A stretch of 64,000 nucleotides of DNA, from contig JAZQDN010000054.1 of assembly GCA_045546815.1 (NCBI GenBank), positions 14,801 through 78,800 of the forward strand. Reading direction: 5' to 3'. The notes under the pieces are model-generated. The model had not been told where the DNA came from. It worked only from the letters and a program-made list of their open reading frames with translations, and searched no databases. Within the stretch, counting starts at the first letter, position 1, and each line of letters starts with the position of its first letter. Below, piece after piece: positions 7,201 to 47,578 of the stretch. The position numbers were made by a program, and so were the translations under genes. The DNA comes from Eubacteriales bacterium. Lineage in GTDB: Bacteria > Bacillota > Clostridia > Oscillospirales > QAKW01.

Positions 7201-8752
7201 CGCGGTTTTCAATTACACGTTCAAAATATGCGGATAGCTCTTTGACTTCATTGGCATTGGTGGCTATAAATCTGAATTTATTATCATCGCTCCATACGTG
7301 CGGTAACCATTTTACAAAGCCAAACTGATTTTCTTCTTCCTTGTCGAATAAGAATACAAATTTTACTTCGTCGTAACTGTAAAGGGCAGAAAGCTGAATG
7401 ATTAATCCTTTGGCGAACTCGGCAACAATTTTTCTCTCACCAATAACACCGGAAACATGGTTTTCATATAAAGAATATGTAATAGGAATATTATGAAGAG
7501 GCTTTTCTTTTTCACATAACGTATAAAGTTCTTCCTGCAGATTGTCGTCATCAAGAGAAAATTTGCGTTCAGAATAGCTTATTTCTGCATCAAGCACGCC
7601 TTCTCCTTTACCAATACGAACACGAAGAAAATCGTTCTGCCCAATGCCGCGTTCCCAAAGATTTCGTTGGGTATCCCTAATTCTTTGCTCACACTCTTGA
7701 ATAGTTACGTGGTTTTCATTCAGAATCTCTTCCTGAAGCTGACAGGCCTCGTTTATCTGTACAGTAATTTTATCAAGATACTCTCTGTATTTTTTTTGAC
7801 GGAGAGCCTCTTTTTTACGTCGGTGATTTTTCTCATAACTTTTTGTGATTGTAGGAAGAAGTACAGTTCCTAACAGCATACTTCCACCCATAACCATAGA
7901 GGTTACGTTAGCCGTTGCTATTGCAGATACAAGTGTAACCAACGACATCATAACCATCGCCATAGAAGATCCCATGACAAGCAGCCATGGCATTTCTTCA
8001 GTTATCGGGCTGGTTGGCGGAGAATCTATTTTAAATGTTGCGGTCTCAACATCTCTTTTAAATCGTGGAGAACGGTAGAAGTACTCTTTATCGGGCAGCT
8101 CATATTCATCTTCGTCATCAACGGGAGCAACCGGTTGACTGATAAAATCTCTCAGCTTTGGAGAAAGTCTGACCTGACCGTCCGGATTGTTGAAGGCAAC
8201 GATGTTTTTGCCGACAATAAATCTAAGGCCCATAATAAACACTGTGTCGCCGACCTTCAGATCGGTTTTGGCAATGCGTTTTCCGTTTACAAAGGTGCCG
8301 TTAGTACTGTTTGTATCCAGGATAGACCATTTACCGCCTTTAAAGGAAAGGACAGCGTGGCTGGACGAAACTACTCTGTTATGGTAACAGACATCATTTT
8401 GCTCTGAACGTCCTATTGTCAGATCAATGTCTTCTTTAACAAGATATTTTGTAAAGATTTGACGATCTTCAGTGATCGGCTCTGTAAAAATAAAAACCTT
8501 TTCTCCGTTTGGTTTCCCGAGAACATATATACTTTGTGGTGAAAAAATGGTATTTTTAATTATATTGTTGCGATTATCAAGAATTTTGATCTGGCGAGTT
8601 GATTTCATAATCCACTCGTTGTTTACGCCTTCTATATTAACTAACCGCTCATCACCGGAATCGGATGTTTCGTAAAGCCAGAATTGACCTTTTACTTTTT
8701 CCGGCAACGATATACTGTTTATGTGGGTTTTACTTATTACAGTAACGATCAT
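4193..8752 (-). CDS. essC: Type VII secretion FtsK/SpoIIIE-family ATPase EssC
   Basis: 1519 aa. N-terminal FHA-like region (TIGRSEQNDVCYHNRVVSSSHAVLSF...STNGTFVNG). Hydrophobic TM pair (PWLLVMGSSMAMVMMSLVTLV...MLLGTVLLP). Repeated P-loop ATPase domains follow, with Walker A GMTGSGKSE and GVAGSGKTT. Confidence 0.9.
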   Translation of the reverse strand: MIVTVISKTHINSISLPEKVKGQFWLYETSDSGDERLVNIEGVNNEWIMKSTRQIKILDNRNNIIKNTIFSPQSIYVLGKPNGEKVFIFTEPITEDRQIFTKYLVKEDIDLTIGRSEQNDVCYHNRVVSSSHAVLSFKGGKWSILDTNSTNGTFVNGKRIAKTDLKVGDTVFIMGLRFIVGKNIVAFNNPDGQVRLSPKLRDFISQPVAPVDDEDEYELPDKEYFYRSPRFKRDVETATFKIDSPPTSPITEEMPWLLVMGSSMAMVMMSLVTLVSAIATANVTSMVMGGSMLLGTVLLPTITKSYEKNHRRKKEALRQKKYREYLDKITVQINEACQLQEEILNENHVTIQECEQRIRDTQRNLWERGIGQNDFLRVRIGKGEGVLDAEISYSERKFSLDDDNLQEELYTLCEKEKPLHNIPITYSLYENHVSGVIGERKIVAEFAKGLIIQLSALYSYDEVKFVFLFDKEEENQFGFVKWLPHVWSDDNKFRFIATNANEVKELSAYFERVIENRDQINDADMEDVKPYYIFFSMSKALASRAEMLKKLLSKKENIHMSIVTFYNELKNLPKECSMVVELSGESGKLFDKNDISGKSTDFTPDINLSQNPTDLSVILANTSLDTTATKFQLPGMITFMELFGVGNVEHLNALTRWKENDPTKSLQAAVGVDTYGETFMLDLHEKFHGPHGLVAGMTGSGKSEFIITYILSLAVNYHPEEVAFILIDYKGGGMAKSFEKLPHTAGIITNLDGSAIKRSLVSIESELKRRQAIFAEASKKVGVSNIDIYKYQKLYREGTVSEPLQHLFIISDEFAELKTQQPEFMTQLVSAARIGRSLGVHLILATQKPSGVVDDQIWSNSKFRVCLKVQERADSMDMLKRADAAELTDTGRFYLQVGYNELFELGQSAWSGASYYPSDRVVKEKDNSVVVIDTNGHTIKQVKIDKKRSLTKDAKKQLDVITDYLRGIAEDEGIKIKPLWLDPIPAVILLDQIKQKYNTTSERFVLNPVIGEFDDPAHQRQSVLRLPLSKEGNTVIYGVAGSGKTTFLNGMIYSIIKEHTPEEANIYILDFASETLRAFAKAPHVGDVILSYETEKVSNLFKMLQAEIERRKKLFADFGGNYTSYIKSSGKTLPSIVVAINNFAAFTEMYEEKEEAVSYLSREGTKYGLYFVLTALGTGAVRFRLLQNFKQLLVLQLNDETDYSSVVGKTDGLFPSKYKGRGLVKRDELYEFQLATLTDDEVPFAFIQQTCKDLAESWSGETARKIPILPDKVDAEFLGDYIDANKALSIPVGVEKNSLNVHFYPFHNSYINMVMSAGMEYQEFISDLTGLIGTYTNTNGIIFDTPKVIADASGSLTVYTASKECEDQIAKLFDLVLYRNNTYKESLESGAVIEDFEQLLVVINSLSMLRTALSDQGKEKLALILEKGTKEYNINIIIAEQVKNISSVSFEKWYKTNVSPSDGLWIGNGITEQYQMKANKTTSEMHDDITPEFGFSLIKGKCVKLKLLNNKAEEDENDE

Positions 8753-13641: not shown

Positions 13642-13645
13642 AAAG

Positions 13646-13675
13646 CAGAGTGGACTTTCCACTCTGTTTTATTTT
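13646..13675 (+). terminator. Intrinsic terminator
   Basis: cagagtgga (13646..13654), 3-nt loop, tccactctg (13658..13666), then ttttattttt. Confidence 0.8.
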
Positions 13676-13685
13676 TATCTGCTAC

Positions 13686-13714
13686 TTGAAATATTGATAT
13701 ATTAATTATATAAT
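13686..13714 (+). promoter_or_regulatory. Candidate sigma-A promoter of the rhaA cluster
   Basis: TTGAAA (13686..13691), 17 nt, TATAAT (13709..13714), 75 nt upstream of the rhaA ATG. Confidence 0.6.
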
Positions 13715-13788
13715 ATTAAGTTAGATAAGAGTTTTTCTCTTTACTTTGTAATTATTTTAAAAAATATATTTCAGTTGGAGGCTATTTT

Positions 13789-15057
13789 ATGAACGAACAA
13801 AAATTATTTGACTATGCAAAATCGGCCTATGCGGCATACGGCGTTGACGTTGAGTCAGCTCTTGAAAAGCTCGCGTCTGTACCCGTTGCAATGCACTGCT
13901 GGCAGGGTGATGACGTGCGCGGCTTTGACACCGACCCGAACAAGCCCTTGACAGGCGGCATCCAGACCACAGGTAACTATCCCGGTCGTGCTCGCACACC
14001 TGAGGAGCTTATGGCAGACATCGATTTTGTGTTAAAGCTCATTCCCGGCATCAAGAAAATGAATCTCCACGCTTGCTACGCAATTTTTGATGACGAAAAC
14101 GGCGGCTGGGTCGATCGCGATAAGCTCGAGCCCAAGCACTTTAAGAAATGGGTAGATTTTTGTAAAGAGCGCGGCCTCGGCTGTGACTTTAACCCCACCT
14201 TCTTTTCACATCCCAAGTGCGACCCGCTCACACTTTCGAGCCCGAACGAAGAAACACGTAACTTCTGGATCGAGCACGGCAAGGCTTGTATCCGCATTTC
14301 AGAGTACCTTGCAAAAGAGCTTGGTCAGCCCTGCATTATGAACATCTGGACAGGCGACGGCTTTAAGGATATCCCCGCTGACCGTATGGGTCCGCGCGTT
14401 CGCTATAAAGAGTCGATCGATGCTATCCTTTCGGAAAAGTACGACTTTAATCTTGTAAAACCCTGCGTTGAGTCAAAGGTATTTGGCATCGGTGTTGAGG
14501 CGTATACAGTCGGCTCTGCAGAGTTTTCACTCTCTTATGCCGCTGCAAATATGGATAAATGCATTCCGCTTATGGATAACGGTCACTATCATCCGACAGA
14601 GGTTGTGTCGGACAAGATCCCCGCACTTCTTGCCTTCTTCCCCGAGGTTGCACTTCACATCACACGTCCTATACGTTGGGACTCAGACCACGTTGTGCTT
14701 CTTGACGACGAGACAAAAGAAATCTGCAAAGAGATCGTTCGTTGCGGCGGTCTTGACGGTCGCGTAAAAATCGCGCTCGACTACTTTGACGCTTCTATCA
14801 ACCGTATCTCTGCCTGGGCTGTAGGTATGCGTAACGTGCAAAAGGCACTTCTTATGGCGCTTCTCACGCCCGACCTTACCAAAATGCAAAACGACAACAA
14901 TTGGTCAGAGCTTATGGTTGTTCAGGAAGAGCTTAAAACATTGCCCTTCGGCGCTGTTTGGGGCGAGTACTGCCGCCGTCAAGGTGTTCCTGCAGACAAC
15001 GAGTGGTTTGCATCGGTTAAAGCTTATGAAAACGACGTTTTGGTTAAACGTGTATAG
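13789..15057 (+). CDS. rhaA: L-rhamnose isomerase
   Basis: 422 aa, collinear with remembered E. coli RhaA over its full length (VPVAMHCWQGDDVRGF, TGGIQTTGNYPG, RWDSDHVVLLDDET). Confidence 0.9.
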   Translation: MNEQKLFDYAKSAYAAYGVDVESALEKLASVPVAMHCWQGDDVRGFDTDPNKPLTGGIQTTGNYPGRARTPEELMADIDFVLKLIPGIKKMNLHACYAIFDDENGGWVDRDKLEPKHFKKWVDFCKERGLGCDFNPTFFSHPKCDPLTLSSPNEETRNFWIEHGKACIRISEYLAKELGQPCIMNIWTGDGFKDIPADRMGPRVRYKESIDAILSEKYDFNLVKPCVESKVFGIGVEAYTVGSAEFSLSYAAANMDKCIPLMDNGHYHPTEVVSDKIPALLAFFPEVALHITRPIRWDSDHVVLLDDETKEICKEIVRCGGLDGRVKIALDYFDASINRISAWAVGMRNVQKALLMALLTPDLTKMQNDNNWSELMVVQEELKTLPFGAVWGEYCRRQGVPADNEWFASVKAYENDVLVKRV

Positions 15058-15068
15058 GAGATAGAATT

Positions 15069-16142
15069 ATGTTTTTTAAAGAAAATGAAAAGCTTTTAAA
15101 TGATTTTTCACGTATTTCAAAAACCGCAGGCGCACGCGCTGACTATGTTCAGGGCGGCGGCGGTAACACGTCAGTAAAACTCGCAGGCGGTCTTATGGCT
15201 ATCAAGGCATCGGGCTTTTGCCTGTCCGATATCGAGCCGGACAAGGCATATGCCGTGCTTGACGGCGCAGGCGTCAGAGATTTTTATTTAACTCATGAGC
15301 CGAGCGATTTTGAAAACGTTGAAACAGCGGGCTCTGCAAAGGCAAAGGAGTCTGTAAAGACAATCGAGGGTCTTGCGCAGCTTCGCCCGTCGGTTGAGGC
15401 AGGCTTTCACTCAATACTCAAAACCTTTGTTGTACATACCCACAGCGTTTATGCAAACCTCGCAGCGTGCGCAGTAAACTGCCGCGAGATCTGTCAAAAG
15501 GCGTTTGCAGATGCTGACTATTCGTGGGGTATGGTGCCCTATGTTGACCCCGGCGCAAACCTCACCTTTGCTATAAGAAACGAGCTTGACCGCGTTGAAA
15601 AAGAAACGGGTAAGGTTCCTTCAATTATAATTATGCAAAACCACGGTATCATCGCACACGATGATGACCCTGACAAATGTCTTGCGCTTCACGCTGACGC
15701 AAATGAGCGTCTGGCAAAGCAGTTCGGTATCACAGCTGATTCTTTCCCCGCAGTTGAGATAAAAGAGGTGGAGAGCGGTCTTTACGAGGCGGCAACACCC
15801 TATCTTACAGATGCGCTTAAGAGCGGCAAGTACACCGAGCAGTTTTTGCTTGAGCAGCCGCTCTATCCCGACCAGATGGTATTTTTGATCGGCACATTCT
15901 CAATGGATAAGGACACCGTAGAGGACGGACAGTGCGTTGCATACAGCGATAGCGGCAGAGTTGCTTTGAGAATGGACGGCAAAAAAGCGCAGGTGCTTGT
16001 TGAAACACTCACAGCCGTTGTATTTGTTATAAACAATATCGAGGCGGCAGGACATCCGCTTTCAACCATGGGCGAGGCCGCAAAGAGCTTTATTGCCAAC
16101 TGGGAGAGCGAAAAATACCGTAAATCACTTGCAGGTAAATAA
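15069..16142 (+). CDS. Class II aldolase/adducin-domain protein resembling the aldolase half of bifunctional RhaEW (YuxG-type)
   Basis: 357 aa. GGGGNTSVK motif as in YuxG-type N-termini. Metal-site His residues VVHTHS and MQNHGII. Confidence 0.6.
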   Translation: MFFKENEKLLNDFSRISKTAGARADYVQGGGGNTSVKLAGGLMAIKASGFCLSDIEPDKAYAVLDGAGVRDFYLTHEPSDFENVETAGSAKAKESVKTIEGLAQLRPSVEAGFHSILKTFVVHTHSVYANLAACAVNCREICQKAFADADYSWGMVPYVDPGANLTFAIRNELDRVEKETGKVPSIIIMQNHGIIAHDDDPDKCLALHADANERLAKQFGITADSFPAVEIKEVESGLYEAATPYLTDALKSGKYTEQFLLEQPLYPDQMVFLIGTFSMDKDTVEDGQCVAYSDSGRVALRMDGKKAQVLVETLTAVVFVINNIEAAGHPLSTMGEAAKSFIANWESEKYRKSLAGK

Positions 16143-16154
16143 GGAGATAAGCTA

Positions 16155-17033
16155 ATGGGTGTAGATATGACAAAATGGCAGGAGATTGCCAAGAAAAACA
16201 TACATAACCGTCCGCAAGGACAGGGTCGCCTTGCAGGCAAGGTTACAATCGTAACGGGTGCGGCGCAGGGATTTGGTAAGGGCATTGCGCAGGAGCTTTA
16301 CGACGAGGGCGCAACAATAATCATTGCCGATATGAACGAGGAGCTTGCAAATACCGTTGCCGATGAAATGGGTGAGCGTGCGTGCGCGATTGCCGTAAAC
16401 GTTGCTGACGAGGACAGCGTTGCATCACTTGTTTCACAGACTGTTGAAAAGTTCGGCGGTCTCGATATTATGGTAGCAAACGCCGGCGTTGTGCGCTCGG
16501 GTCCCGTTGCAGATTTTGAGAAAAAAGATTTTGAGTTTGTAACCGCAATCAATTATACAGGTCTTTTCCTTTGCTGTAAGTATGCCGCGATCATTATGCA
16601 GGCACAGCACGAGGCTGACCCCGATGCATCGTTTGACATTATTGCAATGTCGAGCAAGTCCGGTCTTGAGGGTTCAAATAAAAACTTTGCATACGCAGGC
16701 AGTAAGTTTGGCGCGATCGGTCTTGTACAGAGCTTTGCTCTCGAGCTTTGCGCTTATAACATAAAGGTGAACGCAGTCTGCCCCGGCAACTACCTTGATG
16801 GTCCGCTGTGGTCTGACCCCGTTCGCGGTCTTTTTGTACAGTATCTGCAGGCGGGCAAGGTGCCCGGCGCAAAAACTGTTGAGGATGTTCGCCGTTTTTA
16901 TGAGGCAAAGGTGCCGATGAACCGCGGCTGCCTTCCTATCGACGTTGCACGCGCTGTTATGTACTGCGTTGAGCAAAAGTATGAGACAGGACAGGCAATC
17001 CCCGTCACAGGCGGACAAGTAATGTTAAATTAA
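16155..17033 (+). CDS. Short-chain dehydrogenase/reductase, sorbitol-6-phosphate dehydrogenase (SrlD)-like; resembles the SDR half of RhaEW
   Basis: 292 aa with its own RBS (AAGGAGA). TGAAQGFG dinucleotide motif; YAGSK catalytic Y-x-x-x-K. The C-terminus KVPMNRGC...TGQAIPVTGGQVMLN closely parallels remembered SrlD. Confidence 0.65.
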   Translation: MGVDMTKWQEIAKKNIHNRPQGQGRLAGKVTIVTGAAQGFGKGIAQELYDEGATIIIADMNEELANTVADEMGERACAIAVNVADEDSVASLVSQTVEKFGGLDIMVANAGVVRSGPVADFEKKDFEFVTAINYTGLFLCCKYAAIIMQAQHEADPDASFDIIAMSSKSGLEGSNKNFAYAGSKFGAIGLVQSFALELCAYNIKVNAVCPGNYLDGPLWSDPVRGLFVQYLQAGKVPGAKTVEDVRRFYEAKVPMNRGCLPIDVARAVMYCVEQKYETGQAIPVTGGQVMLN

Positions 17034-17042
17034 GGTGGCATT

Positions 17043-18197
17043 ATGATAGATATTAAAGTTTTAAATAAACTCAACGCACCTACCAAAGAAGAGCGCCTTG
17101 CAAACTTAAAAGAAGTTTTAAAGGATACAGCCTTTCCTCCCATGGTGCCGCAATACATAAATAATCACATACACACAACCTATTCATTCTCGCCCTATTC
17201 ACCGACAGCGTCTGTATACGCTGCGCGTATGGAGGGGCTTTGCACCGCCGGTATTATCGACCACGACTCAATTTCGGGTGCAAGAGAGTTTTTAGAGGCG
17301 GCAAAAATTGTTGACATACCCGTTACAATCGGTATGGAGGCAAGAATCAATATGGACGGCACCCGTCTTGAAGGCCGCCGCACCAACAATCCCGACCAGG
17401 TCGGAATTTCGTATATGACAATTCAGTCGGTGCCTCACGATAAAATTGATGTTTTGACAGAATTTTTCAAGCCGTATCAGCAGGCACGCCACGAGCGTAA
17501 TCGCAAAATGATTGATAAAATCAACGGACTTTTGCCAGGTCTTGCGCTTGATTATGAAAAAGACGTGCTGCCGCTGTCAATGGCACACGAAAACGGCGGT
17601 GTTACCGAGCGCCACTTAATGTATGCGCTTGCAATAAAGCTCACAAATATGGTGGGTAAGGGCGCACCGATGATAGAAAAGCTTGAGGGTCTTGGTCTTA
17701 CACTTTCTCAAAAACAGACAGCACAGATGCTCGACACCGACTATCCGTTTTATGAGTACGACCTGCTCGGCATCTTAAAGAGTGCGTTTGTACCCAAAAT
17801 CTACGTTGATGCAACCGATGAGTGCCCGAAGCTTTCTGATATGGTAAAGCTTTGTAATGATATTGACGCATATCTTTGCTACGCATATCTCGGCGACGTC
17901 GGCGACAGCGTAACAGGCGACAAAAAGGCGCAGAAGTTTGAAGACGACTATCTTGACGATGTGTTTGAGTGCTTAAAAGAGGAGGGCGTAAAGTCAGTCA
18001 CCTATATGCCTACCCGAAACACACCCGCACAGCTCGAAAGACTGCGTAAGCTCTGCGACGACTACGGAATGTTTCAGATTTCGGGCGAGGATATCAACTC
18101 GCCGCGTCAGAGCTTTGTTATAAAGGCGATGGAAAACCCGATGTTTTCCAATCTCATCGACGCAACCTGGAAACTTATTGAACACGAAAATAAATAG
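17043..18197 (+). CDS. PHP-domain (polymerase/histidinol-phosphatase-like) metal-dependent phosphoesterase
   Basis: 384 aa. N-terminal NNHIHTTYS (HxH) and GIIDHD motifs typical of the PHP fold. Confidence 0.6.
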   Translation: MIDIKVLNKLNAPTKEERLANLKEVLKDTAFPPMVPQYINNHIHTTYSFSPYSPTASVYAARMEGLCTAGIIDHDSISGAREFLEAAKIVDIPVTIGMEARINMDGTRLEGRRTNNPDQVGISYMTIQSVPHDKIDVLTEFFKPYQQARHERNRKMIDKINGLLPGLALDYEKDVLPLSMAHENGGVTERHLMYALAIKLTNMVGKGAPMIEKLEGLGLTLSQKQTAQMLDTDYPFYEYDLLGILKSAFVPKIYVDATDECPKLSDMVKLCNDIDAYLCYAYLGDVGDSVTGDKKAQKFEDDYLDDVFECLKEEGVKSVTYMPTRNTPAQLERLRKLCDDYGMFQISGEDINSPRQSFVIKAMENPMFSNLIDATWKLIEHENK

Positions 18198-18212
18198 AAA
18201 AGAGTGAATAAT

Positions 18213-19472
18213 ATGAACACAAAAGCAGTACGTATACACGGTAAGATGGACCTTCGTCTTGATGATGTGAACTTACCCGATATCGGTCCCGATGGCGTTC
18301 GCGTTCGCGTTATCTGTGACAGCCTTTGTATGTCAAGCTACAAGGCGGCAATCGAAGGCGGCGACCACAAGCGCGTTCCCGACCGTTGCGACCTCACCCC
18401 CACAGTTCTCGGTCACGAGTTCTGCGGCGATATTGTTGAGGTTGGCGACAACTGGAAGCATAAATATAAAGTAGGCGATAAGTTTGTAATCCAGCCTGCC
18501 CACTACCACAATGGCAGTCAGATGGCACCCGGATATTCATATGAATTTTGCGGCGGTGATGCGCAGTACGGCAACATTCCCGTTGAAACTCTTCTTGAAA
18601 ACTGCCTGCTACCTTATAATTCAGATACATATTACTACGGCTCACTTGCAGAGCCCCTTAGCTGTGTTATCGGTACCTTCCACGCAATGTATCATACAAA
18701 GGCGGGCTCATACGTTCACGAGATGGGCATAAAAGAGGGCGGAAAGATGGCACTGCTTGCATCGGTAGGTCCTATGGGTCTTGCCGCAATCGACTATGCT
18801 ATCCACTGCGACCGCAGACCCAGCCTTCTTGTTATAACCGATATCGACGACGACAGACTTGCGCGTGCCGCATCGATCTACACGGTAGAAGAGGCTGCTA
18901 AATTCGGCATCGAGCTTCACTATGTAAATACCAAGATGGACAACGCAACCGAGTATCTCCGCGAGCTGACAGGCGGCACAGGCTACGACGATGTTGTATG
19001 CTTTGCACCTGTAAAGCCGCTTATCGAGCAGGCTGACGATATCCTCGGCTTTGACGGCTGTCTCAACTTCTTTGCAGGTCCTACCGACAGTCAGTTCAAG
19101 GCACCGTTTAACTGGTACAACGTTCACTATCTCTACACACACGTTGTCGGCACCTCGGGCGGTAACACAAACGATATGCAGGAGGCAATTGCAATGATGA
19201 ATGAGGGCAGACTTAACCCGTCAGCACTCGTTACCCACATCGGCGGTCTCCACGCGGCAATTGACACGACCCTCAATCTTCCCAAGATCCCCGGCGGTAA
19301 AAAGCTTATCTATACACAGATTGATATGCCGCTTGTTGCTATTGCTGATTTTGAAAAGATGGGTGAAACCGAGCCTATGTTCAAAGAGCTCGACAGACTC
19401 TGCAAAGCAAATAACAATCTCTGGAACCCCGAGGCTGAAAAATATCTGCTTGCAAACGCCAAAAAAATATAA
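18213..19472 (+). CDS. Zinc-type medium-chain dehydrogenase, L-sorbose-1-phosphate-reductase-like
   Basis: ORF track starts at GTG 18204; ATG at 18213. CDSLCMSS...GHEFCGDIVEVG zinc-ADH motifs. About 420 aa, as in SorE-type reductases. Confidence 0.65.
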   Translation: MNTKAVRIHGKMDLRLDDVNLPDIGPDGVRVRVICDSLCMSSYKAAIEGGDHKRVPDRCDLTPTVLGHEFCGDIVEVGDNWKHKYKVGDKFVIQPAHYHNGSQMAPGYSYEFCGGDAQYGNIPVETLLENCLLPYNSDTYYYGSLAEPLSCVIGTFHAMYHTKAGSYVHEMGIKEGGKMALLASVGPMGLAAIDYAIHCDRRPSLLVITDIDDDRLARAASIYTVEEAAKFGIELHYVNTKMDNATEYLRELTGGTGYDDVVCFAPVKPLIEQADDILGFDGCLNFFAGPTDSQFKAPFNWYNVHYLYTHVVGTSGGNTNDMQEAIAMMNEGRLNPSALVTHIGGLHAAIDTTLNLPKIPGGKKLIYTQIDMPLVAIADFEKMGETEPMFKELDRLCKANNNLWNPEAEKYLLANAKKI

Positions 19473-19493
19473 TTATAATTAAGGAGAAAAATT

Positions 19494-20786
19494 ATGAATC
19501 TTAAGTATATGCATCCCGCTGACCAGCTCGTTATGTTTATGCAGCGTATCTATGACAAGGGTCTTACCACCACCTCGGGTGGTAACCTGTCAATTATGGA
19601 CAGCGACGGCAACATCTGGATAACACCCGCAAGTGTTGATAAGGGTACTCTTCGCCGTGAGGATATTATCTGCGTTAAGCCCGACGGTACGACCGTAGGT
19701 CCGCATAACCCCTCATCAGAGATTCCTTTCCACGCATCAGTTTATAAAATGCGTCCCGATCTCAAGGCTGTGCTTCACGCACATCCCCCCGCACTCGTTG
19801 CGTTCTCAATCGCAAGCCGTGTACCCAATCTTGACCTGCTCCCCACTATCCGCCGTATCTGTAAGGATGCAAAAATCGCCGTTTACGGTGTGCCCGGCAG
19901 TGAGGACCTCGGCAACAAAATCGGTGCAGTTTTTGCAGAGGGCTGTGATATTGCAATCCTCGAAAACCACGGTGTGTGCATCGGCGCAGCGGATATGTTC
20001 ACCGCTTTCCAGCGCTTTGAAACACTTAACCTTGCAGCTGACCTTGAAATCAAGGCTACAAAAATCGGTAAAATCAAGAGCCTTTCTGAAGAAGACCACC
20101 GTATTGCAGTTACAACCCACCACACAAAGCTTGACGACTTTATTCCGCACACAATCACATCGGAGGAGCGTTCGGCACGCCGTGATATGATAACACTTAT
20201 CAAGCGTTCATACCGTCAGGGTCTGTTTACCGCAACCCACGGCACATACTCGGTTCGTCTGTCTGATGACAGCTTTCTTATCACACCCTTCGGTCAGGAC
20301 CGCGCTTATCTTGAAGAGGATGACCTTGTGCGCGTAAAGGGCGGCATGAAGGAGCTTAACAAGACACCCTCAAGGGCAGTTGCGCTCCACGAGGAGATTT
20401 ATAAGCAAAACCCCGAAATCCGTGCAATCCTTCAGGCACACCCCGTGCACGCTATGGCTTTTGCTGTAACAGATGCACCCTTTGACCCCAGAACCATTCC
20501 CGAAAGCTATATTCTGCTTCGTGATATTAAGAAGATACCGTTTGGCGACCTGTACACAAACACGAAAAAGGTTGCAAAATCATTTGATGCACCGCATCCT
20601 GCATTTATGGTTGAAAACAACAGCGTTATCGTTACAGGCAACAGCTTACTTCAGGCTTTTGACCGCCTCGAAGTTATGGAAGCTACCGCACACTCACTTG
20701 TAAACGCAAGCAGTCTTGGTGATGTTGACCGCATTACCGATGAAGAGGTAGAGGACCTTAAAAAAGCATTCCACCTCGAAGGCTAA
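19494..20786 (+). CDS. Fused tandem class II aldolase/adducin-domain protein
   Basis: 430 aa with two aldolase-II domains. Domain 1 has TSGGNLS, LHAHPP and ENHGV. Domain 2 has ATHGTYS and LQAHPVH, but ENNSV where ENHG is expected. Confidence 0.65.
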   Translation: MNLKYMHPADQLVMFMQRIYDKGLTTTSGGNLSIMDSDGNIWITPASVDKGTLRREDIICVKPDGTTVGPHNPSSEIPFHASVYKMRPDLKAVLHAHPPALVAFSIASRVPNLDLLPTIRRICKDAKIAVYGVPGSEDLGNKIGAVFAEGCDIAILENHGVCIGAADMFTAFQRFETLNLAADLEIKATKIGKIKSLSEEDHRIAVTTHHTKLDDFIPHTITSEERSARRDMITLIKRSYRQGLFTATHGTYSVRLSDDSFLITPFGQDRAYLEEDDLVRVKGGMKELNKTPSRAVALHEEIYKQNPEIRAILQAHPVHAMAFAVTDAPFDPRTIPESYILLRDIKKIPFGDLYTNTKKVAKSFDAPHPAFMVENNSVIVTGNSLLQAFDRLEVMEATAHSLVNASSLGDVDRITDEEVEDLKKAFHLEG

Positions 20787-20822
20787 AATAAAAAAGAGTC
20801 GGTTTAAACCGACTCTTTTTTA
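20786..20822. repeat. 37-nt repeat copy A containing a perfect 32-nt palindrome (bidirectional terminator-like)
   Basis: aaat-aaaaaagagtcggtttaaaccgactctttttt-a; palindrome at 20790..20821. Identical to 23130..23166. Supplies the last codons KKESV-stop of the MFS ORF. Confidence 0.9.
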
Positions 20823-22054
20823 AATGCTTTTTTTACCCAAATAACTAAAATAACGCTGAGAACCACCGCAACAACCGACAAAAGTTGTTGTGCGTAAATC
20901 GGCAAGCCAAAGACTGTGTTTCCGTTTTTTTGAATGATGCTGACAAGCGGACTTAGTGCAAGAGTGGACAAAAATCCCATAACACCCGCAACCGCTTGAC
21001 AGACTGCAAGCGCATCGGCACGTGACTCGTTTGGTGCATAGTCAAATACAAGATTAATAAGACCGCTGTTGGTACCACCGAGTGCCATTCCGTGCAGAAT
21101 ATAATATAAAACTAATAATACAGATGCTGTTTTTGGGTTTGTGAAAACCACTGCAAGATAGGCAAATAACAAAAGCACCGATGCTCGTCCGAACATCCTC
21201 GCAAACGAGTGTTTGTCAGCATACCTGCCCCAAAACTTCGACACGGCAATTCGTGAGATGCTGCCCACAACTCCCATTATCGTTACGGCTTTTAGAGAAA
21301 AGCCAAGTTCGTTTATAAGATATGTATTATAAAATGGTGTTGCCGTATGCGTTACAACCTGATACAGCATAAAGGTAAGCATTACACCGCGCATCTTTTT
21401 ATTTGAAAACACAGACTTAAGCACAAAAAATATGTTTGGCTTTGTTGCTTTGGCAATCGGGCTTTCGTTGGCTCTTACCATTGACACAGTGTGAATAATG
21501 CAAAGTGCAAGCATAACCAACGCAAAAGAAATAAATGCCAGAGTATACTGCCCTTCTTCGATAAACTTATCACTAAGTGCACCCATAGCAAATGAGAATA
21601 TCATCCCCACCCACAGCGACGTCATTTCCTTGTCGGCGGTAAAGCTTCCCCTGTGGCTGTCATCTACAAGCGACATAAGCCACGCAATCTTTTTGGGATG
21701 TGCAATATTATAAATAAGATACGCAAGAACAATAATCACTACAAACAGTGCCATTTTTACCGTACCATTAATATTTAAAAGCGGTATAAAATACAGCAAA
21801 ATAAAAAGCAGTTGGTTTGCGATACTGAGTGCAATTACAAATGGCTTTTTGTGTGCCGTCTGAAAGAAAAGTGATATAAGTTGAAAAAGACATCCAAGAG
21901 TGATTATCGACGACAAAATCCCTGTTATACCATCAGGGATACCAAGGTATTTTGTGAGCGTTGCCAAAAACGCACCCGACACCACAAGGCTTATAAGATG
22001 CTCGGCAGTAGCCTCCACAATATACATTTTTTGAGATAAATTGTATTTTTTCAT
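20804..22054 (-). CDS. MFS-type transporter
   Basis: About 12 hydrophobic helices. Start uncertain (TTG 22093, ATG 22081 or ATG 22054; none has a strong RBS). The C-terminal KKESV is encoded by the palindromic repeat. Confidence 0.7.
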   Translation of the reverse strand: MKKYNLSQKMYIVEATAEHLISLVVSGAFLATLTKYLGIPDGITGILSSIITLGCLFQLISLFFQTAHKKPFVIALSIANQLLFILLYFIPLLNINGTVKMALFVVIIVLAYLIYNIAHPKKIAWLMSLVDDSHRGSFTADKEMTSLWVGMIFSFAMGALSDKFIEEGQYTLAFISFALVMLALCIIHTVSMVRANESPIAKATKPNIFFVLKSVFSNKKMRGVMLTFMLYQVVTHTATPFYNTYLINELGFSLKAVTIMGVVGSISRIAVSKFWGRYADKHSFARMFGRASVLLLFAYLAVVFTNPKTASVLLVLYYILHGMALGGTNSGLINLVFDYAPNESRADALAVCQAVAGVMGFLSTLALSPLVSIIQKNGNTVFGLPIYAQQLLSVVAVVLSVILVIWVKKAFKKESV

Positions 22055-22098
22055 AAACCTATAGTAACAGACAAAAATCATCAGTTCAAGCAATTGGC

Positions 22099-22117
22099 TT
22101 ACGAAAAATTTTCGTAA
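22099..22117. promoter_or_regulatory. 19-nt perfect palindrome, candidate LacI-family operator
   Basis: ttacgaaaa-a-ttttcgtaa, in the divergent MFS / LacI intergenic region. Confidence 0.45.
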
Positions 22118-22166
22118 ACCTTGAATTTTTTATTATCAAAAGTATAATTAAATTGGGTGATTAAAA

Positions 22167-23120
22167 ATGACGATGGAAAAGCTCGCAAAGCTTGCAGGTG
22201 TTTCGATATCTACGGTATCAAAAGCATTTAAGGACGCATCCGACATAAGCGTTGACACAAAAGAAAGAATATTTGCACTTGCAAAGGAATACGGATGCTA
22301 CGGAAAGTTTTATAAATCACGATTTCATAAAAAGATTTTTGCAATAATTTTTCCCGAAATCGAAAGCGCATACTACAACGACTATGTAAGACGTCTGCAA
22401 GGCATAATTGAGCGAAACGACGGAATTGTGCTTATGTCGACTGATAACTTTGATAAAAAAAAGCAGGCAGAACTTATCGACTATTACGCTTCGTTTTTAA
22501 ATGTTAGCGGCATTTTTATAATCTCTTTGCAAACCGAATTAAAACGCGGCTATGACACCCCGATTGTATCGCTTATGTCATCAAAATCAAAAGCTGACTC
22601 AATAAACACCGATATGCACTGTGCGATGCGTGAAGCAGTTGAGCTTTTGACAAAAAATGGTCACACCGATATTGCATTTTTAGGCGAATCACTTACCAAA
22701 TCAAAAGCAAAAATGTTTTGCGATATATGTCATCTGCCATACAATTGCGACAATGTTATTGAAAGTAAGTTTCGTTTTCAGTCGGCAGGTCAGGACGGCG
22801 CAAAACAGCTTTTAAATAAAAAAACAAAATACACCGCCATAATCTGCGCATATGATGACATAGCTTATGGTGCAATACATTATCTTAAAAAACAAGGAAT
22901 TTCAGTACCGCACGATATATCGGTAATAGGCATTGACAACATAAATTTCTCACAATATGCTGAAACACCGCTCACTACAATCGACTATAATGCCAAAACA
23001 ATTTGTTTGAGTGCGTGGGAGCTTATGTCAAAAAAAGTGAAAAACAAATATTATAAGGATAAAAATGTTATAATTCCCGCAAAACTCATTTTGCGAGACA
23101 GTGTTGCAAAATGCAAATAA
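22167..23120 (+). CDS. LacI-family transcriptional regulator
   Basis: 317 aa. N-terminal HTH MEKLAKLAGVSISTVSKAF. Periplasmic-binding-protein-like C-terminal domain. Confidence 0.85.
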   Translation: MTMEKLAKLAGVSISTVSKAFKDASDISVDTKERIFALAKEYGCYGKFYKSRFHKKIFAIIFPEIESAYYNDYVRRLQGIIERNDGIVLMSTDNFDKKKQAELIDYYASFLNVSGIFIISLQTELKRGYDTPIVSLMSSKSKADSINTDMHCAMREAVELLTKNGHTDIAFLGESLTKSKAKMFCDICHLPYNCDNVIESKFRFQSAGQDGAKQLLNKKTKYTAIICAYDDIAYGAIHYLKKQGISVPHDISVIGIDNINFSQYAETPLTTIDYNAKTICLSAWELMSKKVKNKYYKDKNVIIPAKLILRDSVAKCK

Positions 23121-23129
23121 AATCAATTG

Positions 23130-23166
23130 AAATAAAAAAGAGTCGGTTTAAACCGACTCTTTTTTA
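23130..23166. repeat. 37-nt repeat copy B containing the same perfect 32-nt palindrome
   Basis: Identical to 20786..20822; palindrome at 23134..23165. Supplies KKESV-stop to the 23148..24032 ORF. Confidence 0.9.
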
Positions 23167-27320: not shown

Positions 27321-27350
27321 AAAAACGGGATGAATTTCATCCCGTTTTTT
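27321..27350. terminator. Bidirectional intrinsic terminator
   Basis: A5-cgggatg-aattt-catcccg-T6, between the convergent traX-like and eda genes. Confidence 0.8.
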
Positions 27351-27990
27351 ATATTTTATCGGTGTACTCTTTTGCCAGCGCTTGTATTGCGGCAAAATCG
27401 CCCGCCTCAATCAGCTTTTTGTTTACAATTCCCGAGCCGACGCCGACACCGACAGCACCCGCTTCGATATACTCTGTCATGTTTTGTGCCGTAATGCCGT
27501 TTACTGCAAGCATACGCACGTTTGACAGCGGTGCACTCAACGTTTTTATATACTTTGGGCCGTAAAGGTCGATGGGGAAAACCTTTACAAAATCAGCGCC
27601 CGCGCGATGTGCGCCTGCAACCTCGGTCGGCGTGATGGCGCCGGGTATCGACACAAGCCCCAGTTTTTTTGTAAGCCCGATAATGTCAGCGTTCGTATCG
27701 GGCGAGATTATAAATTTTCCGCCCGCGGAATGTGTGAGCTCCACCTGCTTTTGTGTAAGTACGGTTCCCGCACCGATTGCCATTTTGCCGTCAAAATGCT
27801 CTGCAAGCATTTTTATGTTATCGGCAATTTGCTCATCGGGAATTTTACCGCTTGCGTCAAATGTGCACTCTACAAGCCGTATACCGCCCGCGTACATAGC
27901 GCTTACAAGCGGCAGTAAGCTTTGCTTTGCAACGCCGCGCACTATTACAATAATTTTGTTTTGTTCAATAAGCTCTGATGTGTTTAACAC
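27349..27990 (-). CDS. eda: KDPG/KHG aldolase (Eda family)
   Basis: GTG at 27990 sits 9 nt downstream of AGGAGG (28005..28000) and is preferred over ATG 28029. Motifs VECTFDA, GAGTVL and PGAITPTE..FVKVFP are typical of Eda. Confidence 0.8.
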   Translation of the reverse strand: MLNTSELIEQNKIIVIVRGVAKQSLLPLVSAMYAGGIRLVECTFDASGKIPDEQIADNIKMLAEHFDGKMAIGAGTVLTQKQVELTHSAGGKFIISPDTNADIIGLTKKLGLVSIPGAITPTEVAGAHRAGADFVKVFPIDLYGPKYIKTLSAPLSNVRMLAVNGITAQNMTEYIEAGAVGVGVGSGIVNKKLIEAGDFAAIQALAKEYTDKI

Positions 27991-47575: not shown

Positions 47576-47578
47576 ATG

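What the first reader, a model, noticed from the sequence alone, without database searches (positions are those of the whole stretch)
13686..20786. rhaA-anchored six-gene sugar cluster without any kinase, mutarotase or canonical rhaD
Seen: behind one strong promoter lie six genes in order. They are rhaA; a class II aldolase-domain protein and an SrlD-like SDR (together resembling a split RhaEW/YuxG); a PHP-domain phosphoesterase; a sorbose-1-phosphate-reductase-like Zn dehydrogenase; and a fused double class II aldolase. No FGGY-type or other sugar kinase, PTS component or RhaM is present in the cluster or its flanks. The only transporter is an MFS. Established: the phosphorylated rhamnose pathway needs RhaA, RhaB (kinase) and an aldolase. 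SorE-type plus SrlD-type enzymes convert a ketose-1-phosphate via a hexitol-phosphate to fructose-6-phosphate. PHP proteins are usually phosphatases. Inference: the gene mix does not fit a textbook rhamnose, fucose or sorbose route. It may encode a variant (deoxy)hexose or hexitol pathway with the kinase encoded elsewhere, or different chemistry for the aldolase-fold proteins (epimerase or dehydratase activities exist in this fold).
Basis: partly seen in the sequence, partly recalled or inferred. Interest (0 to 1): 0.6.

Follow-up and report, generated by a model that had tools for sequence, protein, structure and literature searches.

The report
Kinase-less rhamnose operon with unknown enzymes
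A gut Clostridia bacterium has a well-conserved six-gene rhamnose-type sugar operon with no kinase gene, built around three co-conserved enzymes of untested function (a dehydrogenase, a phosphatase-fold protein and a sorbose-phosphate-reductase-like enzyme) that recur in many related genomes.

Summary
Six tightly packed genes (13789-20786, + strand) lie between a near-consensus promoter and a terminator: RhaA, a class II aldolase-like protein (ald1), an SDR, a PHP-fold protein, a Zn dehydrogenase and a double class II aldolase (ald2x). No FGGY kinase or RhaM exists anywhere in the 64 kb.

- ald1 plus SDR are a split form of an aldolase::SDR fusion.
- The Zn dehydrogenase is 45-46% identical to SorE and 54-55% to E. 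coli YggP.
- In relatives, ald1 sits in minimal rhaA-ald1-rhamnulokinase operons, so it is probably the rhamnulose-1-P aldolase.
- SDR-PHP-ZnADH is a conserved triad. In 38 loci with enough flank, 22 have a rhamnulokinase-like gene beside it. In two distant genomes it sits in full rhaM-rhaA-ald1-rhaB-SDR-PHP-ZnADH clusters. In seven loci it lies near a PDH-like complex.
- The kinase-less six-gene form recurs in a second genome, with dN/dS of 0.03-0.08, so it is functional.

Best reading: a phosphorylated L-rhamnose-type pathway with the kinase encoded elsewhere, plus an uncharacterised sugar-phosphate redox and dephosphorylation module. The role of PHP is unresolved. I found no characterised pathway that matches. 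It is a new variant of a known kind, of moderate to high interest.

The parts
13642..13670 (+). Hairpin terminator of the upstream gene; marks the 5' boundary of the operon
   Evidence: 13-bp stem followed by a T-run
13686..13714 (+). Sigma-70-type promoter-like site, TTGAAA-17-TATAAT
   Evidence: 11 of 12 consensus positions, the best in the scanned 10.5 kb. A GGAGG ribosome-binding site precedes the rhaA ATG.
13789..15057 (+). rhaA, L-rhamnose isomerase (422 aa)
   Evidence: PF06134, 587 bits. NF002203 equivalog, 605.7 bits against a cut-off of 572. 91% identical to L082 and 86% to L084.
15069..16142 (+). ald1, class II aldolase-like protein (357 aa); probable L-rhamnulose-1-P aldolase, the RhaE half of a split aldolase::SDR
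   Evidence: PF00596, 66 bits. It keeps the catalytic residues expected for this fold, matched to recalled FucA motifs: GGNTS 31-35, E110, H123/H125 and H192. It aligns over residues 10-355 with the N-half of the L087 fusion. Orthologues 82-92% identical sit in rhaA-ald1-FGGY or ald1-FGGY operons.
16155..17033 (+). SDR (292 aa), sorbitol-6-P-dehydrogenase-like and RhaW-like
   Evidence: NF009050, 222 bits (cut-off 307). TIGR02632 C-terminal half, 154 bits. 59% identical to the SDR half of the L087 aldolase::SDR fusion. Adjacent to PHP in 36 of 38 loci.
17043..18197 (+). PHP-fold protein (384 aa), the anchor of the conserved triad; function untested, probably a sugar- or alditol-phosphate phosphoesterase
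   Evidence: PF02811, 28 bits. AF2 model with pLDDT 96; nearest structures are the TrpH-type phosphoesterases 3o0f, 2yb1 and RNase AM at about 15% identity. Conserved H42, H44, D73, H74, E99, H191 and D350. By comparison with my recollection of the canonical motifs, the usual D-x-H appears as D350-I-N352. A mannitol-1-P-dehydrogenase::PHP fusion exists in L087.
18204..19472 (+). Zn-dependent dehydrogenase of the SorE/YggP family (422 aa, or 419 aa from the ATG at 18213)
   Evidence: PF08240 and PF00107. tblastn gives 54-55% identity to E. coli yggP and 45-46% to annotated sorE over 99% of the length. C38, H71 and E72 are present, which from my knowledge of this family are the catalytic Zn residues. 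There is no Cys cluster where the structural Zn site would lie.
19494..20786 (+). ald2x, tandem class II aldolase-fold protein (430 aa): catalytic N-half, degenerate C-half
   Evidence: Two PF00596 stretches. In the N-half, N31, S74-S75-E76 and H95/H97 are invariant in 119 homologues; H159 is present in the window protein but was not checked across them. The C-half has S-R-A in place of S-S-E, and Q314 and N/D/G at two of the His positions. It lies in the same operon in L082, and next to a rhaM/RhaS-type ABC/AraC/rhaA-ald1-FGGY locus in L084.
20789..20822 (.). Bidirectional hairpin terminator ending the operon
   Evidence: 15-bp stem with T-runs. The identical 32 bp recur at 23134-23165.
20804..23120 (.). 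Adjacent MFS transporter (20804-22093, -) and LacI regulator (22167-23120, +); probably an independent cassette, not shown to belong to the operon
   Evidence: Pfam MFS_1 and LacI/Peripla_BP. The palindrome TTACGAAAAATTTTCGTAA occurs only at 22099-22117. The cassette is flanked by identical hairpins and is absent from L082.

Best explanation
This is a functional catabolic operon for L-rhamnose, or a very close 6-deoxy or L-configured sugar. It uses the phosphorylated route. Its kinase, mutarotase and high-affinity transporter are encoded elsewhere in the genome.

Proposed steps:
1. RhaA makes L-rhamnulose. This rests on an equivalog-level family match.
2. A rhamnulokinase encoded outside the window makes L-rhamnulose-1-phosphate. 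This is inferred and could not be seen.
3. ald1 is the aldolase. It stands in for RhaD and corresponds to the RhaE half of RhaEW. It cleaves the sugar phosphate to DHAP and L-lactaldehyde. This is inferred from the retained catalytic residues and from rhaA-ald1-rhaB operons in relatives.
4. The SDR is the separated partner of ald1. By analogy with RhaEW it oxidises L-lactaldehyde, or it acts on the sugar phosphate itself.
5. SDR, PHP and the SorE/YggP-like reductase also form an independent, widely conserved module that works on phosphorylated ketoses. The reductase would reduce a ketose-1-phosphate to an alditol phosphate, as SorE does. The SDR would re-oxidise an alditol phosphate, as SrlD or SorD does. 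PHP would remove or otherwise process the phosphate ester. All of this is inferred from family membership, fusions and gene order. None of it has been assayed.
6. ald2x, whose N-half is catalytically complete, supplies a second C-C cleaving or epimerising activity downstream. It occupies the position after ZnADH that other genomes fill with a second FGGY kinase or a PDH-like E2-E3-E1 complex.
For: Rhamnose link. RhaA passes the curated equivalog cut-off. Orthologous or related loci carry RhaM, a RhaS-like binding protein (259 bits) and an FGGY whose best model is rhamnulokinase (409-429 bits). L081 reads ABC-rhaM-rhaA-ald1-FGGY-SDR-PHP-ZnADH, and L073 reads rhaA-ald1-FGGY-SDR-PHP-ZnADH-E2-E3-E1-LplA.

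ald1 as the aldolase. The metal ligands, the catalytic Glu and the phosphate loop are retained. In L094 the operon is rhaA-ald1-FGGY and nothing more. L093 and L095 have ald1-FGGY, with ald1 82-92% identical to the window's.

Split fusion. The SDR is 59% identical to the C-half of a 654-aa aldolase::SDR protein. ald1 aligns end to end with its N-half.

ZnADH family. 45-46% identity to sorE and 54-55% to yggP. SorE reduces L-sorbose-1-P to D-sorbitol-6-P (PMC12817954).

Triad. In 38 loci with enough flank, 36 have the SDR, 25 the ZnADH, 25 any FGGY and 22 the rhamnulokinase-like FGGY. Start and stop codons overlap in L070.

PHP as a phosphoesterase acting after a sugar-phosphate dehydrogenase. 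The fold supports this. So does the mannitol-1-P-dehydrogenase::PHP fusion. In E. coli, yggP lies beside yggF, which is annotated as a class II fructose bisphosphatase (glpX).

Functional despite having no kinase. The same six genes occur in L082 with no kinase within 10 kb. dN/dS is 0.03-0.08 at dS 0.7-1.1 for all six genes.
Against: - No kinase was found, and the rest of the genome could not be searched. The exact PHP protein is not on record in the gene-position collection.
- The kinase-less form is conserved in at least two genomes. L046 and L070 also have no FGGY hit within the flanks searched (about 10 kb), so kinase independence is not excluded.
- All rhamnose-family matches other than RhaA fall below the curated equivalog cut-offs.
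- A phosphatase inside a kinase-dependent catabolic route is energetically odd. This model gives PHP no necessary role.
- The PHP motifs appear to lack part of the canonical trinuclear metal set. Hydrolysis of a phosphate ester is therefore not assured.
- The SDR is only 28% identical to the SDR of a true sor operon.
- No expression or biochemical data exist.
Confidence: 0.5

Rival explanations
1. The triad and the aldolases encode a distinct branch of 6-deoxyhexose catabolism. L-rhamnulose-1-P is reduced by the SorE-like enzyme to a 6-deoxy-alditol-1-phosphate. The SrlD-like SDR then oxidises it at C5 to a 1-deoxy-ketohexose-6-phosphate. That product is cleaved either by a class II aldolase (ald1 or ald2x), giving hydroxyacetone and glyceraldehyde-3-P, or in other lineages by the PDH-like complex, giving acetyl-CoA and a tetrose phosphate. 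PHP processes one of the phosphate esters.
For: SorE-family reductase and SrlD-like SDR. The two are conserved together beside a rhamnulokinase-like kinase even where no aldolase or isomerase is present. PDH-like E1/E2/E3, with lipoate ligase or synthase genes in three of them, lie near the module in L036, L054, L070, L072, L073, L081 and L087. The slot after ZnADH holds E2-E3-E1, a second FGGY or ald2x. The ZnADH's best match among solved structures is a butanediol dehydrogenase. By my own reasoning, that enzyme acts on the same CH3-CHOH-CHOH motif as the deoxy end of rhamnose.
Against: This is pure inference from homology and gene order. Canonical RhaEW gives DHAP and L-lactate without such steps (PMC3870299). 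ald1 works with RhaB alone in L093 and L094. The E1/E2 are closest to ordinary PDH models and could simply oxidise pyruvate. The stereochemistry would give a D-threose or L-erythrose phosphate, not erythrose-4-P, unless an epimerase intervenes. PHP still has no required role.
Confidence: 0.2
2. The six genes are self-sufficient and use no dedicated sugar kinase. Phosphorylated intermediates would arise in another way. One option is aldol condensation of DHAP with an aldehyde by ald1 or ald2x. Another is PHP acting as a phosphotransferase. Alternatively the pathway is not phosphorylated at all.
For: There is no kinase in 64 kb, and none within 10 kb of the identical operon in L082. Strong purifying selection acts on all six genes. 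The PHP metal site looks atypical.
Against: PHP and the triad usually sit next to FGGY kinases (25 of 38 loci), so PHP does not replace a kinase. SorE-like and SrlD-like enzymes, and class II aldolases with an intact phosphate loop, all point to phosphorylated substrates. In the loci examined, the kinase gene sits at different places relative to the rha genes.
Confidence: 0.12
3. The substrate is not L-rhamnose but another rare sugar or alditol, such as L-sorbose, L-fructose, L-xylulose, L-lyxose, L-mannose or a deoxy-hexitol. RhaA would act as a broad aldose-ketose isomerase, and the triad would run a sorbose-type conversion of an L-ketose into a D-ketose phosphate.
For: The commonest context of the triad (Flintibacter muris type) is LacI, ABC, FGGY, SDR, PHP, ZnADH and a second FGGY. 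It has no rhaA, rhaM or aldolase, and its binding protein is not RhaS-like. There is SorE homology. The kinase, binding-protein and SDR matches are below equivalog cut-offs.
Against: RhaA passes the equivalog cut-off. RhaM, the RhaS-like SBP, the rhamnulokinase-like FGGY and AraC-type regulators co-occur with rhaA-ald1 and ald2x in close relatives and with the whole module in L073 and L081.
Confidence: 0.15
4. The cluster is a decaying remnant of a larger rha locus that lost its kinase, mutarotase and transporter, and it no longer functions.
For: Related loci show erosion: L007 and L046 keep only the C-terminal 205 residues or so of ald1. Gene content around the triad varies widely.
Against: All six ORFs are intact. 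The catalytic residues are kept. dN/dS is 0.03-0.08 against L082 at dS 0.7-1.1. The promoter, RBS and terminator are intact.
Confidence: 0.03

Closest known systems
RhaEW-type L-rhamnose pathway (RhaA, RhaB, bifunctional rhamnulose-1-P aldolase / lactaldehyde dehydrogenase; Rodionova et al. 2013, PMC3870299)
   Same: RhaA is followed by a class II aldolase-fold protein and an SDR. Both align with the two halves of aldolase::SDR fusions. Related loci hold rhaB-like, rhaM and RhaS-like genes.
   Different: The two halves are separate genes here. Scores against the RhaEW equivalog TIGR02632 are far below its cut-off: 33 and 154 bits against 568. There is no kinase in the locus. Three extra conserved enzymes are present (PHP, SorE/YggP-like reductase, tandem aldolase). 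In most genomes the SDR travels with PHP, not with ald1.
L-sorbose operon enzymes SorE (L-sorbose-1-P reductase) and SorD/SrlD (glucitol-6-P dehydrogenase)
   Same: The ZnADH is 45-46% identical to annotated SorE over its full length. The SDR's best family model is sorbitol-6-P dehydrogenase. A ketose-1-P to alditol-P to ketose-6-P logic is plausible.
   Different: There is no sorbose PTS and no SorC regulator. The SDR is only 28% identical to the SDR of a true sor operon. The context is rhamnose genes and FGGY kinases. A PHP protein sits between the two dehydrogenases.
E. coli yggP (uncharacterised Zn dehydrogenase in cmtB-cmtA-yggP-yggF)
   Same: This is the closest annotated relative of the ZnADH, at 54-55% identity. 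It also sits beside a sugar-phosphate phosphatase, YggF, annotated as a class II FBPase (glpX).
   Different: The E. coli neighbour phosphatase is GlpX-type, not PHP. The entry route is a mannitol-family PTS, not a kinase or RhaA. My literature search found no paper that assigns yggP a function.
TrpH/YciV-type PHP phosphoesterases (Cv1693 3',5'-nucleoside bisphosphate phosphatase; RNase AM)
   Same: These are the best structural matches to the PHP model (Foldseek E 5e-12 to 5e-10, TM 0.52-0.56 on the query). The HxH, DH, E and D motifs are kept.
   Different: Identity is about 15%. The protein is about 100 residues longer, with a large helical insert. By my recollection of the canonical set, several metal ligands are not conserved (D-x-H reads D-I-N). 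The genomic context is sugar catabolism, not nucleotide metabolism.
Canonical E. coli rhaBAD-rhaM system
   Same: The RhaA orthologue passes the equivalog cut-off.
   Different: RhaB, RhaD-type aldolase and RhaM are all absent. The RhaD model NF002963 scores 67 bits against a cut-off of 170, and only on ald2x.

Membership tests
E. coli-type rhaBAD(M) rhamnose operon | L-rhamnose isomerase RhaA | tested here: met
   NF002203, 605.7 bits against a cut-off of 572; PF06134, 587 bits
E. coli-type rhaBAD(M) rhamnose operon | Rhamnulokinase RhaB (FGGY) in the locus | tested here: not met
   No FGGY anywhere in the 64 kb by tblastn or six-frame phmmer --max
E. coli-type rhaBAD(M) rhamnose operon | RhaD-type rhamnulose-1-P aldolase | tested here: not met
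   NF002963 scores 66.6 bits against a cut-off of 170, on ald2x only; ald1 does not hit it
E. coli-type rhaBAD(M) rhamnose operon | RhaM mutarotase | tested here: not met
   No match in six frames
RhaEW-type rhamnose pathway | Class II aldolase domain and SDR domain homologous to the two halves of the bifunctional enzyme | tested here: met
   ald1 residues 10-355 align with residues 5-375 of a 654-aa aldolase::SDR protein (E 3e-25). The SDR is 59% identical to residues 381-653.
RhaEW-type rhamnose pathway | Single fused polypeptide scoring as the RhaEW equivalog (TIGR02632, 568 bits or more) | tested here: not met
   Two separate genes, scoring 32.7 and 154 bits
RhaEW-type rhamnose pathway | Rhamnulose-1-P cleavage and NAD-dependent lactaldehyde oxidation activities | not testable with these tools
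   Needs enzyme assays. Support is indirect only: catalytic residues and rhaA-ald1-FGGY operons in relatives.
Sorbose-type SorE/SorD pathway | SorE-family Zn-dependent ketose-1-P reductase | tested here: met
   45-46% identity over 99% of the length to annotated sorE. Substrate not tested.
Sorbose-type SorE/SorD pathway | Glucitol-6-P dehydrogenase (SrlD/SorD equivalog) | tested here: inconclusive
   NF009050 is the best model but scores 222 bits against a cut-off of 307. 28% identity to the SDR of a L. plantarum sor operon.
Sorbose-type SorE/SorD pathway | Sorbose-specific mannose-family PTS and SorC regulator | tested here: not met
   No PTS component among the annotated ORFs of the window
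PHP phosphoesterase superfamily | PHP domain and fold | tested here: met
   PF02811, 28.0 bits against 26.4. The AF2 model (pLDDT 96) matches 3o0f, 2yb1 and 9etk.
PHP phosphoesterase superfamily | Complete set of His/Asp/Glu ligands for the trinuclear metal site | tested here: inconclusive
   H42, H44, D73, H74, E99 and D350 are 77-100% conserved. No conserved His follows strand 4, and the final D-x-H reads D-I-N. The mapping is by motif and by my recollection of the canonical ligands, not by superposition.
PHP phosphoesterase superfamily | Phosphoester hydrolysis activity | not testable with these tools
   Needs a phosphate-release assay
Class II (metal-dependent) aldolase/epimerase family | Three His metal ligands, a catalytic Glu and a phosphate-binding loop (positions matched to recalled FucA motifs) | tested here: met
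   ald1: N33/S35, E110, H123, H125, H192. ald2x N-half: N31, S74-S75-E76, H95, H97, H159; all of these except H159 (not checked) are invariant in 119 homologues. The ald2x C-half lacks them.

The most novel reading that the evidence does not exclude
The conserved triad (SrlD-like SDR, atypical PHP protein, SorE/YggP-like reductase) works together with class II aldolase-fold proteins or a PDH-like lipoyl complex. Together they form an undescribed route for 6-deoxyhexose (L-rhamnose) breakdown in anaerobic Clostridia and some other phyla. The sugar-1-phosphate would be turned end for end, through a 6-deoxy-alditol phosphate, into a 1-deoxy-ketose phosphate. Its methyl-ketol end would then be split off as hydroxyacetone or as acetyl-CoA. 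This would avoid L-lactaldehyde and 1,2-propanediol as products. The PHP enzyme would catalyse a reaction new for its fold. The same work would also assign a function to the E. coli orphan gene yggP.
Probability: 0.2. Interest if true: 0.8.

Novelty: new variant of a known kind. Interest (0 to 1): 0.6.

Why it matters
L-rhamnose from plant pectins and bacterial glycans is an important gut substrate. Its textbook fate, 1,2-propanediol and then propionate, shapes cross-feeding between gut bacteria. Here a rhamnose-type operon from an abundant and mostly uncultured gut family (Oscillospiraceae) carries three co-conserved enzymes that the known pathway does not need.

The PHP family alone has more than 8000 clusters at 90% identity in public data. 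It has 146 representatives at 50% identity with E below 1e-30.

If the triad diverts rhamnulose-1-phosphate into different products (hydroxyacetone, acetyl-CoA or a deoxy-alditol), metabolic models of these organisms are wrong for deoxy-sugars. It would also give a first functional context to the E. coli y-gene yggP and to an atypical PHP enzyme.

The kinase-less but strongly selected form gives a clean experiment. Either a trans-encoded kinase serves two loci, or the chemistry is new.

Tried and rejected
- Kinase or mutarotase hidden in the window: rejected (tblastn; six-frame phmmer --max; Pfam on other ORFs).
- PDH-like E1/E2/E3 in the window: three candidate ORFs at 45.3-48.7 kb turned out to be YceG, a xylose-isomerase-like TIM barrel and a GFO/IDH/MocA oxidoreductase. 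tblastn with E1/E2/E3 found nothing in the window.
- The LacI next to the MFS as regulator of the operon: its operator-like palindrome occurs only in its own intergenic region. No evidence of co-regulation.
- Identifying the source genome to look for rhaB elsewhere: no gene with exactly the window's PHP product is on record in the gene-position collection.
A rhaA-ald1-FGGY contig (L094) comes from the same metagenome sample as L082. However, its GC is 56% against 48%, and its rhaA is only 50% identical. It is probably from another organism.
- 'Kinase deleted precisely between ald1 and SDR': I first inferred this from L084, L073 and L081. I weakened it after L093 and L094 showed that ald1-FGGY operons end without the triad. 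The window form may instead be a rhaA-ald1 pair joined to the triad.
- Sequence searches of solved structures with PHP and ald1 gave only weak matches.
- A search of plasmids with PHP found nothing.
- The afdb50 fold library was unavailable.
- Literature searches for PHP with rhamnose, for RhaEW follow-ups and for yggP found no characterisation.
- Decay or pseudogene reading: rejected by dN/dS.

Full report
**What is in the window.** Between 13.6 and 20.8 kb there is one compact transcription unit on the + strand. A hairpin terminator of the upstream gene (13642-13670) is followed by a near-consensus promoter-like site (TTGAAA-17-TATAAT, 13686-13714) and a GGAGG ribosome-binding site. Six ORFs follow, separated by 6-21 nt, and a bidirectional hairpin terminator closes the unit at 20789-20822.

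Family scans give:
- RhaA. It passes the curated NCBIfam equivalog NF002203, 605.7 bits against 572.
- A 357-aa class II aldolase-fold protein (ald1).
- A 292-aa SDR. Its best model is sorbitol-6-phosphate dehydrogenase, at 222 bits, below the cut-off.
- A 384-aa PHP-domain protein.
- A 422-aa Zn-dependent dehydrogenase.
- A 430-aa protein with two class II aldolase domains (ald2x).

The organism is an Oscillospiraceae bacterium close to the MAG genus Faecousia. The best genomic relatives of the PHP gene are 82-88% identical and come from animal and human gut MAGs.

Five different FGGY kinases and two RhaM proteins from related loci find nothing in the 64 kb. This holds for tblastn and for six-frame phmmer with filters off; the best E-value is 0.02. 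Pfam scans of about 45 of the larger ORFs show no other sugar-kinase family and no PTS component. About 20 ORFs were not scanned.

The neighbouring MFS gene is probably unrelated to the operon:
- It is divergently paired with a LacI gene.
- The only copy of the LacI-type palindrome TTACGAAAAATTTTCGTAA lies in their shared intergenic region, not upstream of rhaA.
- The pair is bracketed by two identical 32-bp hairpins.
- The closest relative of the operon lacks the pair altogether.

**Anatomy of the individual proteins.**

*ald1.* It keeps the residues expected for a metal-dependent class II aldolase, matched by me to recalled FucA motifs. These are the GGNTS phosphate loop, E110, H123, H125 and H192.

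*ald1 plus SDR.* They are the two halves of an aldolase::SDR fusion. Against a 654-aa fusion protein from a distant genome (L087), ald1 aligns from residue 10 to 355 with the N-half, and the SDR is 59% identical to the C-half. Both halves score far below the RhaEW equivalog cut-off, however.

*Zn dehydrogenase.* It belongs to the SorE/YggP family. It is 54-55% identical to E. coli yggP and 45-46% to genes annotated sorE, over 99% of its length. SorE reduces L-sorbose-1-phosphate to D-sorbitol-6-phosphate (PMC12817954).

*ald2x.* The N-half has an invariant catalytic set. The C-half has lost it: S-R-A replaces S-S-E, and Gln and Asn/Asp/Gly replace two of the metal histidines. This pattern is conserved in 119 homologues. 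ald2x is therefore one active domain fused to a structural pseudo-domain.

*PHP protein.* It gives a very confident model (pLDDT 96). Its nearest solved relatives are the TrpH-type phosphoesterases: 3o0f, the pAp phosphatase Cv1693 and RNase AM, at about 15% identity. The HxH, DH, E and D motifs are conserved. Measured against my recollection of the canonical trinuclear set, several ligands appear to be missing, and three arginines are invariant. It could be a phosphoesterase with a modified metal site, or something new.

**Comparative genomics changes the picture.** I built a profile of the PHP family and fetched 80 genomic loci with it. Mapping all the genes back by tblastn shows that the conserved unit is not the six-gene set. 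It is the triad SDR-PHP-ZnADH.

Counts in the 38 loci with enough flank:

| Gene near PHP | Loci |
|---|---|
| SDR | 36 |
| ZnADH | 25 |
| any FGGY kinase | 25 |
| rhamnulokinase-like FGGY | 22 |
| CUT2 ABC transporter | 15 |
| rhaA | 2 |
| ald1 | 2 |

The rhamnulokinase-like FGGY scores 409-429 bits on TIGR02627.

- The commonest arrangement, seen for example in the cultured Flintibacter muris, is LacI, ABC, FGGY-A, SDR, PHP, ZnADH, FGGY-B.
- In two distant genomes the triad is embedded in complete rhamnose clusters. L081 (Chloroflexota) reads ABC-rhaM-rhaA-ald1-FGGY-SDR-PHP-ZnADH-E2. L073 reads rhaA-ald1-FGGY-SDR-PHP-ZnADH-E2-E3-E1-LplA.
- The triad, or parts of it, also occur alone. L089 has ZnADH-SDR-PHP, L023 has PHP-ZnADH and L001 has SDR-PHP.

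**The rhaA-ald1 pair has its own history.**
- L094 reads AraC | rhaA-ald1-FGGY and stops there. L093 and L095 have ald1-FGGY. Their ald1 is 82-92% identical to the window's. An operon made of isomerase, this aldolase-fold protein and a rhamnulokinase is the whole canonical phosphorylated pathway. I therefore take ald1 to be the rhamnulose-1-P aldolase.
- L084 reads ald2x | rhaM-RhaS-like ABC | AraC | rhaA-ald1-FGGY. Its rhaA and ald1 are 86-87% identical to the window's. This ties ald2x to rhamnose loci as well.
- The window form looks like a rhaA-ald1 pair joined to the triad and ald2x, without the kinase.
- That exact form recurs in L082, with 90-96% amino-acid identity and no kinase within 10 kb.
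- All six genes show dN/dS of 0.03-0.08 at dS 0.7-1.1. The kinase-less operon is therefore maintained by selection and is not a decaying remnant.
- Erosion does occur elsewhere. L007 and L046 keep only the C-terminal 205 residues or so of ald1.

**How it most likely works.** The evidence best supports a phosphorylated rhamnose-type route whose kinase lies outside the window. The steps would be RhaA, then a kinase in trans, then cleavage by ald1 to DHAP and L-lactaldehyde. The SDR would act as the separated RhaW-like partner.

The triad is a module for phosphorylated ketoses:
- A SorE-like ketose-1-P reductase.
- An SrlD-like dehydrogenase.
- A PHP protein that probably hydrolyses a sugar or alditol phosphate.

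Three observations support the phosphatase reading. The first is the fold. The second is a mannitol-1-phosphate-dehydrogenase::PHP fusion in L087, which suggests consecutive steps. The third is that E. coli yggP sits beside an unrelated sugar-phosphate phosphatase, yggF.

What is shown is family membership, retained catalytic residues, gene linkage and purifying selection. What is inferred is every substrate and the existence of the trans kinase. I rate the overall statement at 0.5. No model gives PHP a necessary role, even though it is the most conserved component.

**A more novel reading is not excluded.** A PDH-like E2-E3-E1(αβ-fused) set lies next to or near the module in seven loci from at least four lineages: L036, L054, L070, L072, L073, L081 and L087. 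Three of these loci also carry lipoate ligase or synthase genes.

The slot directly after ZnADH is filled by E2-E3-E1, by a second FGGY, or by ald2x as in the window.

Suppose the SorE-like enzyme reduces L-rhamnulose-1-P, and the SDR re-oxidises the alditol phosphate at C5, as S6PDH does at the equivalent position. The product would be a 1-deoxy-ketohexose-6-phosphate. Its methyl-ketol end could be released as hydroxyacetone by an aldolase, or as acetyl-CoA by the thiamine and lipoyl complex.

This fits the homologies and the positional pattern, but it is untested. The E1/E2 are closest to ordinary PDH models and could simply oxidise pyruvate. I give this reading about 0.2.

**Comparison with what is known.** The cluster works like a RhaEW-type rhamnose locus, but it fails the membership tests for three systems:
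- E. coli rhaBAD(M): no RhaB, no RhaD-type aldolase and no RhaM.
- The RhaEW equivalog: the two halves are split, and both are well below the cut-off.
- The sor operon: no PTS, no SorC, and an SDR that is not SorD-like.

Literature searches found no paper linking PHP proteins, yggP or SorE-type enzymes to rhamnose catabolism, and no follow-up redefining RhaEW. I therefore class it as a new variant of a known kind.

**Verdict.** The real point of interest shifts from the missing kinase to the conserved, uncharacterised SDR-PHP-SorE/YggP triad and its recurrent links to rhamnulokinase, class II aldolases and PDH-like complexes.

Noticed in passing
window 20790-20821 and 23134-23165: Two identical 32-bp hairpin-terminator sequences (AAAAAAGAGTCGGTTTAAACCGACTCTTTTTT) flank the MFS-LacI pair as direct repeats. 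None is expected by chance. The pair is absent from the closest related operon (L082), which has a different terminator. This looks like a cassette inserted or recombined at a terminator.
   Followed up: partly
window 22099-22117: A near-perfect palindrome, TTACGAAAAATTTTCGTAA, lies in the 73-nt MFS/LacI intergenic region. It is a likely LacI-family operator and is unique in the window.
   Followed up: yes
L036, L054, L070, L072, L073, L081, L087/L088: PDH-like E2, E3 and a fused E1 alpha-beta (about 820 aa) lie beside or near the SDR-PHP-ZnADH module in several phyla. L070 and L073 also carry LplA, and L087 carries LipB and LipA. L087 has in addition mannitol-1-P-dehydrogenase::PHP and aldolase::SDR fusions.
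   Followed up: partly
L007 170-778; L046 8389-9012: In two related genomes only the C-terminal 205 residues or so of ald1 remain upstream of the SDR. The part carrying the phosphate loop, E110 and the HxH motif is missing. This could be a truncated gene or a separately retained C-terminal domain.
   Followed up: no
L091 (E. coli NZ_CP137739.1, 68424-73778): E. coli yggP is the closest annotated relative of the ZnADH. It lies in cmtB-cmtA-yggP-yggF(glpX-like FBPase)-fumE-yggC. This is a dehydrogenase-plus-phosphatase pairing analogous to ZnADH-PHP. My literature search found no function assigned to yggP.
   Followed up: partly
window 27349-29847 (- strand): A three-gene run: a KDPG/KHG aldolase (226 aa), a metallo-beta-lactamase-fold protein (270 aa) and an Fe-ADH-family protein (365 aa). 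It lies about 7 kb downstream of the operon. It could be another small sugar-acid or aldehyde-handling unit, and the Fe-ADH could be a lactaldehyde reductase.
   Followed up: no
window 46610-48673 (- strand): An adjacent GFO/IDH/MocA oxidoreductase (364 aa) and a xylose-isomerase-like TIM-barrel protein (321 aa). This is a typical pair of unknown sugar or inositol-type chemistry. A GFO/IDH/MocA gene also follows PHP in L072.
   Followed up: no
window 4193-8752 (- strand): A 1519-aa protein with an FHA domain and FtsK/SpoIIIE ATPase domains. From memory, this resembles an EssC-like type VII secretion ATPase.
   Followed up: no
PHP-family representatives P0154, P0191, P0192, P0197, P0209, P0231: There is a recurrent fusion of about 830-860 aa in more distant PHP homologues (30-38% identity). 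In the three scanned with Pfam (P0154, P0191, P0197), an N-terminal LPG_synthase_TM (MprF-like membrane) domain precedes the PHP-like domain. This hints that some family members act on membrane-linked phospho-compounds.
   Followed up: no
L094 716-2002: A Cas12f1-like TNB (TnpB-type) gene sits next to the AraC/rhaA-ald1-FGGY operon of a related organism.
   Followed up: no
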